A DNA stretch of 64,000 nt from Eledone cirrhosa. Lineage: Eukaryota. Numbering within the stretch: position 1 is the stretch's first letter; the number at the start of each line of letters is the position of its first letter. The position numbers and the translations under genes are program-made. The notes beneath the pieces were generated by a model that was not told the DNA's origin, ran no database searches, and was given only the letters and a program-made list of their open reading frames with translations. The stretch lies in the NCBI GenBank assembly GCA_964016885.1, contig OZ024742.1, positions 198,152,001 to 198,216,000 of the forward strand, read 5' to 3'. Below are positions 57,682 through 58,092 of the stretch, piece after piece.

Positions 57682-57793
57682 ATTTCAGAGCTTTTAATTT
57701 TTTTTTATTTTTAATTTCTGCCTGACCGGCAACCGCTCTGTATAATCAGTTCCTGATTATTTACTAGAATTCTATAAGAATATAACGTCAGTG

Positions 57794-57887
57794 ATCTCAG
57801 TAGACAGGAGGGAGTAGTTAGCCTTGATAAGCATAAAAAAATACGAAACAAGGCCTTGTCGGCTTATCTCCCCTTGTTTGCTGAGAT
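57794..57887 (+). ncRNA. Extended type I hammerhead ribozyme with U3-A8 core
   Basis: AGCC-UUGAUAA-GCAU-AAAAAA-AUAC-GAAA-CAAGGCCUUG-UC|GGCU; stem I extends about 20 more bp past an internal loop. Confidence 0.78.
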
Positions 57888-58092
57888 TAAAGTAAGTGAG
57901 TTTGTCACTACTCTAAAACAATAGCATACGGTCTTCAAAATGCTTTTAATTAAGCATAAAGTGTATTGCAAAATACATTATATATACATTCATATATATA
58001 TTGCTATTTCAGAGCTCCAATTCTAATTTTTATATATATATATATTTATATATATATATATGATAAATTACACAATAATCAAATCATTTTGT

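What the first reader, a model, noticed from the sequence alone, without database searches (positions are those of the whole stretch)
57682..58016. Extended hammerhead with compensatory U3-A8 core in a 324-bp direct-repeat-bounded monomer (retrozyme-like)
The core reads UUGAUAA instead of CUGANGA, so both partners of the 3-8 tertiary pair are changed in a compensatory way. It has a GUC cleavage site (after 57860) and a 12-nt palindromic stem III. Stem I is long (57794-57823 with 57861-57887) and has an internal loop placed where loop II contacts normally form. The 11-mer atttcagagct at 57682 and 58006 gives a 324-nt unit, the size of non-LTR retrozyme monomers, and the neighbouring gap could hide more copies. 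One C-A mismatch is present in stem II.
Basis: partly seen in the sequence, partly recalled or inferred. Interest (0 to 1): 0.8.

Follow-up and report, generated by a model that had tools for sequence, protein, structure and literature searches.

The report
Retrozyme family with swapped hammerhead core
This is one slightly decayed copy of a 319-base jumping repeat with over 2,000 copies, whose predicted self-cutting RNA carries a known rare core swap and which is likely spread by Penelope-type retrotransposons; it is a new variant of a known kind of element.

Summary
The type I hammerhead is real, at the stated coordinates. It is one copy of a dispersed family: 2,139 exact matches to the U3-A8 core in family context, none with C3-G8. 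The monomer is 319 bp, not 324; the 11-mer is part of a tandem junction and terminal tail, not a boundary repeat. The stem II mismatch is private decay. Across 22 subfamily representatives the helices covary and the 3-8 pair is always Watson-Crick (17 U-A, 5 C-G); a tree needs one switch. Insertions look like those of Penelope-like elements (PLEs): head-to-head arms, (AT)n targets, and a 26-nt tail on exactly one arm in 30 of 32 cases. In a young sister family both arms share locus-private variants, which suggests arrays are written at insertion from one monomer template. RT-GIY-YIG PLEs here also carry U3-A8 hammerheads, but no partner with homologous ends was found. Cleavage, expression and circles are untested. 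Retrozymes, their PLE link and natural U3-A8 cores are published; this combination and the insertion anatomy were not found in my searches. Interest 0.42.

The parts
57682..57706 (+). End of an upstream monomer (part of its tail/junction, with a longer T-rich run), cut off by the assembly gap
   Evidence: same junction in tandem copies
57707..58025 (+). One full 319-nt retrozyme monomer, subfamily A1, 33.5% GC
   Evidence: (joint goes back 319)
57792..57823 (+). Hammerhead stem I, 5' strand; internal loop at 57815-57819; proximal helix 57820-57823
57824..57830 (+). Catalytic core box UUGAUAA with U3 (57824) and A8 (57829)
57831..57844 (+). Stem-loop II, 4 bp plus 6-nt loop; private G-to-A at 57843 breaks the second pair
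57845..57847 (+). Core G12 A13 A14
57848..57859 (+). Stem III: 12-nt palindrome (4 bp plus tetraloop as a monomer; 12-bp duplex in a predicted double hammerhead)
57860..57860 (+). C17; predicted cleavage 3' of this base (GUC)
   Evidence: hammerhead geometry; C in 60 of 62 other segments
57861..57889 (+). Hammerhead stem I, 3' strand; internal loop 57865-57867
57992..58001 (+). Internal (AT)5 tract: the end point of tail-less arms, and the inferred priming site on a nicked (TA)n target
58002..58027 (+). 26-nt tail, present on one arm only of inverted insertions; contains the second 11-mer (58006)
58028..58061 (.). T4 plus (AT)n microsatellite: the insertion target
57482..57681 (.). 200-N assembly gap; content unknown

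Best explanation
It is the right-hand, tailed arm of an insertion of a high-copy non-LTR retrozyme: a non-coding 319-nt tandem repeat whose transcript is predicted to cut itself into monomers with a U3-A8 type I hammerhead, and which is likely pasted into (TA)n microsatellites by the RT-endonuclease of an autonomous Penelope-like element (PLE). Shown: family, copy number, fixed U3-A8 core, covarying helices, end geometry, and PLEs with the same target and two-end geometry in the genome. Inferred: (1) read-through transcription of an array; (2) cleavage after each GUC, mainly as a double hammerhead joined through the palindromic stem III; (3) circularisation of the monomer by a host ligase (from the published retrozyme model, not tested here); (4) a PLE endonuclease nicks (TA)n, the nicked strand primes on the RNA's internal AU tract, and RT runs round the template to give tandem copies; (5) the second target strand primes 26 nt further on, which gives the inverted arm with its tail. 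This copy has a private mismatch in stem II and is likely a decaying passenger.
For: Dispersed family: 142 matches in the 40 scored of 1,831 candidate places, full-length ones mostly 94-99% identical; 2,139 exact U3-A8 cores against 0 C3-G8 in the same context. Structure under selection: 94.4% of cells paired, 21 of 24 pairs with changes on both sides, slid controls at most 47% paired; 3-8 pair U-A 17, C-G 5, mismatched 0 of 22 hand-picked representatives. One C3-G8/U3-A8 change on a tree with those two positions masked (support 94/90, not starred). Ends: 30 of 32 simple inverted insertions have exactly one tailed arm; 43 of 45 tailed ends run into (AT)n (51 loci). Craig et al. describe this pattern for PLEs. 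Sister family B: differences per site 0.0008 within an arm, 0.0013 between opposite arms, 0.012 between loci; 12 of 19 locus-private substitutions lie on both arms (9 loci). Double hammerhead lower in energy than two single ones in 14 of 17 natural tandem pairs, and within 2 kcal/mol of the minimum in 10 of 17 (two singles: 0 of 17). Circular monomers fold better than shuffles (z -4.9 and -5.7). A PLE with a 938-aa RT + GIY-YIG frame, a CX4CxxC linker and 97.8% identical flanking repeats carries a U3-A8 hammerhead in both repeats.
Against: No cleavage, expression or circle was observed. No PLE terminal repeat homologous to the retrozyme was found in 73 loci searched with a profile, a small sample of 10,595 GIY-YIG candidates; the end offsets seen in PLEs (about 33 and 64 nt) differ from 26. 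In the window's own subfamily A1, within-locus and between-locus divergence are equal (2.0-2.5%) and only 3 of 87 private substitutions lie on both arms, so the single-template argument rests on family B and, more weakly, A2. Assembly polishing could also homogenise young arrays. In 3 of 17 tandem pairs the double hammerhead was not favoured, and most A2 arrays (11-nt stem III) were not captured; of the two, one favoured the double form and one did not. Li et al. saw in vitro cleavage in only 1 of 9 Xenopus retrozyme dimers.
Confidence: 0.85

Rival explanations
1. The unit is only the truncated 3' end (pseudo-LTR) of an autonomous PLE that I did not find, not an independent non-autonomous element.
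For: PLE insertions are mostly 5'-truncated with the same inverted, tailed geometry; several PLE families here carry U3-A8 hammerheads in their terminal repeats.
Against: Arrays of 2-7 complete head-to-tail monomers with a fixed junction; no ATG frame of 40 aa or more inside a seven-hammerhead array (5 frames listed, all running into flanking microsatellite); none of the 25 non-overlapping A1 loci showed the unit joined to a coding body in the alignments; no profile hit in PLE terminal repeats.
Confidence: 0.07
2. A minisatellite that grows locally by unequal crossover or gene conversion after a single monomer lands (the satellite route discussed by Li et al.), with the hammerhead as a relic.
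For: Young arrays are homogeneous; Li et al. discuss this route.
Against: Unequal crossover does not make head-to-head arms with a 26-nt offset at two fixed ends (30 of 32); arrays are short and dispersed over many contigs; the helices covary between subfamilies, which points to selection on an RNA intermediate.
Confidence: 0.04
3. The element moves through RNA, but the U3-A8 fold is kept as a protein-binding or packaging structure and cuts poorly or not at all in the cell.
For: In one deep-mutational study of a type III hammerhead only the G3-C8 swap rescued activity (PMC9901934); PLE hammerheads cleave weakly in vitro (PMC4209133); genomic ends lie about 130 and 165 nt from the cleavage site, not at it.
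Against: All catalytic core positions other than 3, 7 and 8 are invariant in 22 representatives, and C17 or A17 is kept in nearly all; Perreault et al. state that ribozymes covarying at 3/8 are active in vitro; priming on a circle would uncouple the ends from the cut site.
Confidence: 0.1

Closest known systems
Metazoan non-LTR retrozymes (Cervera and de la Pena 2020, PMC7229834; passages and part 1 of Results read)
   Same: 150-450 bp non-coding tandem monomers, low GC, one type I hammerhead per monomer, self-paired predicted circle, co-occurrence with PLEs
   Different: Core fixed as U3-A8; 12-nt palindromic stem III; (TA)n targeting with inverted arms and a one-sided tail, where that paper mentions only occasional target duplications; expression not shown here
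Retrozymes as non-autonomous PLE derivatives (Li, Clavereau and Pollet 2026, 10.64898/2026.07.22.740005; parts 1-3 of 5 read; supplements closed)
   Same: Same proposed dependence on PLEs; similar monomer length
   Different: There the link is sequence homology to pseudo-LTRs in Xenopus; here no such homology was found and the link is insertion geometry. Their text has no mention of 'tail' and discusses local amplification by unequal crossover
U3-A8 minimal hammerheads of Schistosoma Cercyon PLEs (Cervera and de la Pena 2014, PMC4209133; parts 1-2 of 4 read) and natural U3-A8 variants (Perreault et al. 2011, PMC3088659; section 8 read)
   Same: Same compensatory 3-8 swap
   Different: The Schistosoma ones are minimal, heterogeneous and mostly single (about 1,300 hits); here the swap sits in an extended hammerhead with loop I/II features, in a homogeneous tandem family with colinear C3-G8 relatives
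EN+ PLEs of the Neptune/Nematis type (Craig et al. 2021, 10.1101/2021.04.23.441226; passages read)
   Same: Partial tandems, inverted 5'-truncated arm, tail on one end, microsatellite target
   Different: No RT or endonuclease; tail 26 nt, against the 30-40 bp they describe

Membership tests
Type I hammerhead ribozyme | Core boxes, three helices, NUH cleavage triplet, open stem I | tested here: met
   stem II has a private mismatch in this copy only
Type I hammerhead ribozyme | Watson-Crick 3-8 pair | tested here: met
   U-A 17, C-G 5, mismatch 0 of 22; 2,139 against 0
Type I hammerhead ribozyme | Loop I-loop II tertiary contact | tested here: inconclusive
   Two loop II adenines are invariant and two internal-loop bases nearly invariant; the contact itself was not modelled
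Type I hammerhead ribozyme | Self-cleavage | not testable with these tools
   needs an in vitro assay
Rfam hammerhead families (clan CL00010) | Score at or above the gathering threshold | tested here: not met
   0 hits in the window and 0 in 13 loci; best HH9 scores 11.8 bits (window) and 19.5-24.9 bits (relatives) against a threshold of 52. C3-G8 family B also fails, so the miss is not due to U3-A8 alone
Non-LTR retrozyme | 150-450 bp tandem monomers, each with a type I hammerhead | tested here: met
Non-LTR retrozyme | Non-coding, GC under 50% | tested here: met
   33.5% GC; no internal ATG frame of 40 aa or more in an A2 array
Non-LTR retrozyme | No LTR, primer binding site or polypurine tract | not tested
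   no LTR-flanked body appears in the alignments; PBS and PPT were not searched
Non-LTR retrozyme | Self-paired circular monomer fold | tested here: met
   computed only: z -4.9 and -5.7 against 60 shuffles each
Non-LTR retrozyme | Expressed as linear and circular RNA | not testable with these tools
   needs RNA data or northern blots
Non-autonomous PLE derivative | Inverted 5'-truncated arm, tail on one end, microsatellite target | tested here: met
   30 of 32; 43 of 45
Non-autonomous PLE derivative | Sequence homology to the pseudo-LTR of an autonomous PLE | tested here: inconclusive
   none in 73 loci searched, out of 10,595 GIY-YIG candidates
Autonomous PLE | RT plus GIY-YIG open reading frame | tested here: not met
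   no such frame in the unit or next to it

The most novel reading that the evidence does not exclude
Retrozyme arrays are written whole at the moment of insertion: a (TA)n-targeting PLE enzyme primes on both nicked target strands, 26 nt apart on one circular monomer RNA, and copies round the circle. The U3 core change also serves as a multimer sensor: in the A1 and A3 subfamilies the strand ending in U3-U4-G5 pairs with the 5' arm of stem III (6-7 bp in 9 of 14 rows), which keeps monomers off, while the 12-bp palindromic duplex switches tandem transcripts on. The genome would then offer a natural series (C3-G8 relatives, U3-A8 descendants, PLE hammerheads) to test both the PLE integration mechanism and core evolution.
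Probability: 0.3. Interest if true: 0.65.

Novelty: new variant of a known kind. Interest (0 to 1): 0.42.

Why it matters
The kind of element and the core swap are both known, so a specialist would not be very surprised. Two points add value. First, how PLEs make their tandem/inverted insertions, and what mobilises retrozymes, are open questions. Here thousands of short, young insertions share fixed end points (internal AT tract, 26-nt one-sided tail), and in family B variants are shared across both arms. That gives a compact substrate and clear predictions for a PLE retrotransposition assay, and it argues against growth by local unequal crossover. Second, a U3-A8 core stayed fixed through several successive subfamily expansions, next to colinear C3-G8 relatives, so matched natural pairs exist for kinetics. 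All of these hammerheads fall below Rfam's thresholds, so standard annotation misses tens of thousands of motifs in this genome.

Tried and rejected
Rfam at gathering score: no hammerhead in the window or in 13 loci. Expression: no RNA holder listed among 16 runs; this says nothing either way. Gap: no contig or read bridges 57482-57681. Partner search: a profile of 14 natural retrozyme segments hit only separate retrozyme insertions in 53 + 20 loci; a first BLAST gave the same. A 7-nt word shared by the end of one PLE family and the end of the retrozyme tail was set aside, because it lies before the AT tract in one and after it in the other. One search used a miscounted structure string and is void (redone). 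One search was swamped by microsatellite hits (redone); one search's end classifier was too strict (redone); one search missed five tandem pairs (redone). The inactive minimum-energy fold of monomers is not taken as evidence of a switch, because C3-G8 family B shows the same gap (6.7 kcal/mol against 4.5 for A1 and 7.3 for the window copy). A 324-nt unit and the 11-mer as a target duplication were rejected. Row A3d has a long branch in the tree (0.48) and its place is unsure. Three papers were not held, so measured U3-A8 rates and the 2017 PLE-dimer paper were not seen. Earlier scan notes: none found. The organism is not given; 'octopus' and 'cephalopod' were guesses from sequence composition used as search words and were not tested.

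Full report
Observation. The sequence at 57792-57889 folds into a long hairpin (-42.4 kcal/mol, z -6.6, 0 of 200 shuffles as stable). It holds every element of a type I hammerhead: core UUGAUAA at 57824-57830, stem II at 57831-57844, GAA, a 12-nt palindromic stem III at 57848-57859 and a GUC site ending at 57860. Rfam does not call it (HH9 11.8 bits against a threshold of 52). The 11-mer stands at 57682 and 58006 only. The 200-N gap ends at 57681.

The family. A search of the 3.0-Gb genome gave 1,831 candidate places; the 40 scored held 142 matches, the full-length ones mostly 94-99% identical. An exact 19-nt pattern over stem I and the U3-A8 core matches 2,139 times (control 0); the same pattern with C3-G8 matches 0 times. 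The period is 319 nt in the window's subfamily A1 and 316 in A2. The window copy differs from the commonest letter of other A1 segments at four places: 57787 and 57843 are private (0 of 55 and 0 of 63 others), and 57835 and 57838 are shared with a minority (7 of 62, 9 of 63). Raw reads of two other samples with the same species label have G at 57843 in 342 of 349 and 262 of 275 reads, and show a coupled A-U to U-A change in stem II (57833/57842) in over half of the reads of one run and about half of the other. So the stem II mismatch is decay of this copy. Contigs of two of the four other organisms laid (X4, X6) cover the hammerhead, show the same coupled change and list no other letter at positions 3 or 8 (one row not shown).

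Relatives and covariation. A loose end led to family B (310-311 nt, at least 18,158 matches, control 0). It is colinear with A but has a C3-G8 core and a 6-nt palindromic stem III. Further C3-G8 relatives and other U3-A8 subfamilies were found. On 22 representatives that I picked for diversity, the hammerhead structure pairs in 94.4% of cells (shuffles 78.8%; slid controls 33-47%), 21 of 24 pairs change on both sides, and the 3-8 pair is U-A in 17, C-G in 5 and never mismatched. The rows are related, so these are not probabilities. A tree of 28 segments with positions 3 and 8 masked needs one change between the two cores; the 18 U3-A8 rows form one side of a branch (94/90, not starred) and, rooted on B, nest within C3-G8 relatives (the root is my choice; family D, also U3-A8, was left out as too divergent). 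Genome-wide, degenerate patterns match 7,288 U3-A8 sites (control 180) and 64,086 C3-G8 sites (control 1,197). The two patterns differ in strictness, so their ratio is only a rough guide.

Insertion anatomy. Copies sit as short tandems, usually in two arms joined head to head at truncated 5' ends. In 51 A-family loci, 32 had one scored end on each strand; 30 of these had one arm ending at the element's internal (AT) tract and the other 26 nt further on, one had two tails and one none. Of 45 tailed ends, 43 run into (AT)n (for tail-less ends the AT flank is partly there by construction). Family B shows the same in the loci listed. Craig et al. describe this for PLEs: partial tandems, an inverted 5'-truncated copy, a 30-40 bp tail on one end, and a microsatellite bias (passages). 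The window copy is a tailed arm (tail 58002-58027, then T4 and (AT)n). The first 11-mer is the remnant of the previous monomer's junction, so the contig begins inside the array. Left of the gap lies a decayed transposase with a WPPxSPD-like motif, which I recall as Tc1/mariner.

Single-template test. In young family B (9 loci, 80 segments), monomers differ at 0.0008 per site within an arm, 0.0013 between opposite arms and 0.012 between loci; 12 of 19 locus-private substitutions covered on both arms are on both. In A2 (9 loci) the values are 0.012, 0.019 and 0.035. In A1 (24 loci) all three are 2.0-2.5% and only 3 of 87 are shared, as expected for a burst from near-identical sources followed by decay. 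B fits both arms being copied from one monomer sequence at insertion. A homogeneous source array, gene conversion or assembly polishing are not excluded.

Candidate drivers. GIY-YIG has 10,595 candidate places. Locus L102 holds a 938-aa frame with RVT_1 (E 2e-6, 28 bits, just under the curated 29.6) and GIY-YIG (E 2e-6) and a CX4CxxC linker, between 97.8% identical repeats. That linker marks Neptune/Nematis-type PLEs in Craig et al.; the clade was not tested by a tree. Its repeats carry a U3-A8 hammerhead, as do at least two related PLE families. These PLEs end at (AT)n with two alternative end points, about 64 and about 33 nt apart. A profile of 14 retrozyme segments found no homology in their terminal repeats (73 loci), so the partner is unidentified.

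Mechanism. Shown: the above. Inferred from the published retrozyme cycle (PMC7229834, passages and part 1 of Results; PMC7761336, passages): read-through transcription, self-cleavage to monomers, ligation to circles, reverse transcription by a PLE. My computations add that circular monomers fold well (z -4.9, -5.7), and that natural tandem pairs favour a double hammerhead through the palindrome: lower than two single hammerheads in 14 of 17 pairs, and within 2 kcal/mol of the minimum in 10 of 17, against 0 of 17 for two singles (most A2 arrays not captured; 3 of 3 B pairs at the minimum). Genomic ends lie about 130 and 165 nt past the cut site, which fits internal priming on the AU tract of a circular or multimeric RNA. 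A weaker idea: the strand ending in U3-U4-G5 can pair with the 5' arm of stem III (6-7 bp in 9 of 14 A rows, 2-4 bp in the other five; pair types). This could hold monomers off. It is largely lost in A2, rests on few events, and family B has a similar energy gap without it.

What is known. Natural U3-A8 cores are reported, with the statement that such covariants are active in vitro (PMC3088659 section 8), and about 1,300 were found in Schistosoma PLE hammerheads (PMC4209133). One deep scan of a type III hammerhead found rescue only for G3-C8 (PMC9901934, passages), so activity depends on context. Retrozymes as non-autonomous PLE derivatives are proposed in a 2026 preprint (supplements closed and may list families relevant here). 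My searches (finds) found no retrozyme with a fixed U3-A8 core and no account of inverted, one-tailed retrozyme insertions. The library lacks most subscription papers and Repbase was not available, so the family may already be catalogued.

Verdict. A real feature and a new variant of a known kind: a U3-A8 non-LTR retrozyme with PLE-type insertion anatomy (confidence 0.85). This copy is probably impaired. Interest 0.42; 0.65 if birth of arrays at insertion and multimer gating are confirmed (probability 0.3).

Noticed in passing
G000, genome-wide: The genome is very rich in hammerhead motifs: 64,086 C3-G8 and 7,288 U3-A8 pattern matches (controls 1,197 and 180); none of 13 loci tested reached Rfam's threshold.
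   Followed up: partly
L059-L067, L050 (family B): Very young 310-311 bp C3-G8 retrozyme family, at least 18,158 matches, long near-identical inverted arrays; often a U-U mismatch at the base of stem II. The best substrate for the integration question.
   Followed up: partly
L102:2773-8815; also L103, L106, L110, L112, L120, L147: RT-GIY-YIG PLE families whose terminal repeats carry U3-A8 hammerheads with a 6-nt palindromic stem III; they end at (AT)n with two alternative end points.
   Followed up: partly
L139, L140, L074: Another GIY-YIG element with a U3-A8 minimal hammerhead, often as inverted pairs 1.8-2.6 kb apart.
   Followed up: partly
L121, L133, L137 (family D): A divergent small-element family that also has U3-A8 and an 8-nt palindromic stem III; possibly an independent switch.
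   Followed up: partly
L167, L168, L111 (family E); L110:7573-7705 (family F); L160:2466-3079; L153: Further hammerhead repeats: tandem units of about 424-500 bp, a short inverted element with its hammerhead close to the 3' end, and two more families.
   Followed up: no
window 56975-57481 (-): Decayed Tc1/mariner-like transposase (family name recalled from the motif), cut by the gap; high-copy in reads.
   Followed up: partly
window 58252-58467: Inverted repeat with 97-nt arms, 95% complementary, 22-nt spacer; MITE-like or an inverted insertion.
   Followed up: no
window 22909-23571 (+): 220-aa frame that looks like the GIY-YIG end of a PLE; no Pfam hit at E 0.001.
   Followed up: partly
window 42170-42240 (+) and 2140-2197 (-): tRNA-like matches over Rfam's threshold (41.8 and 31.2 bits); probably tRNA-derived repeats.
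   Followed up: no
window 29153-30052 (-), 37542-39934 (-), 47077-48186 (+), 13975-14418 (+): Fragments that read like LINE reverse transcriptases and a mariner transposase (names recalled).
   Followed up: no
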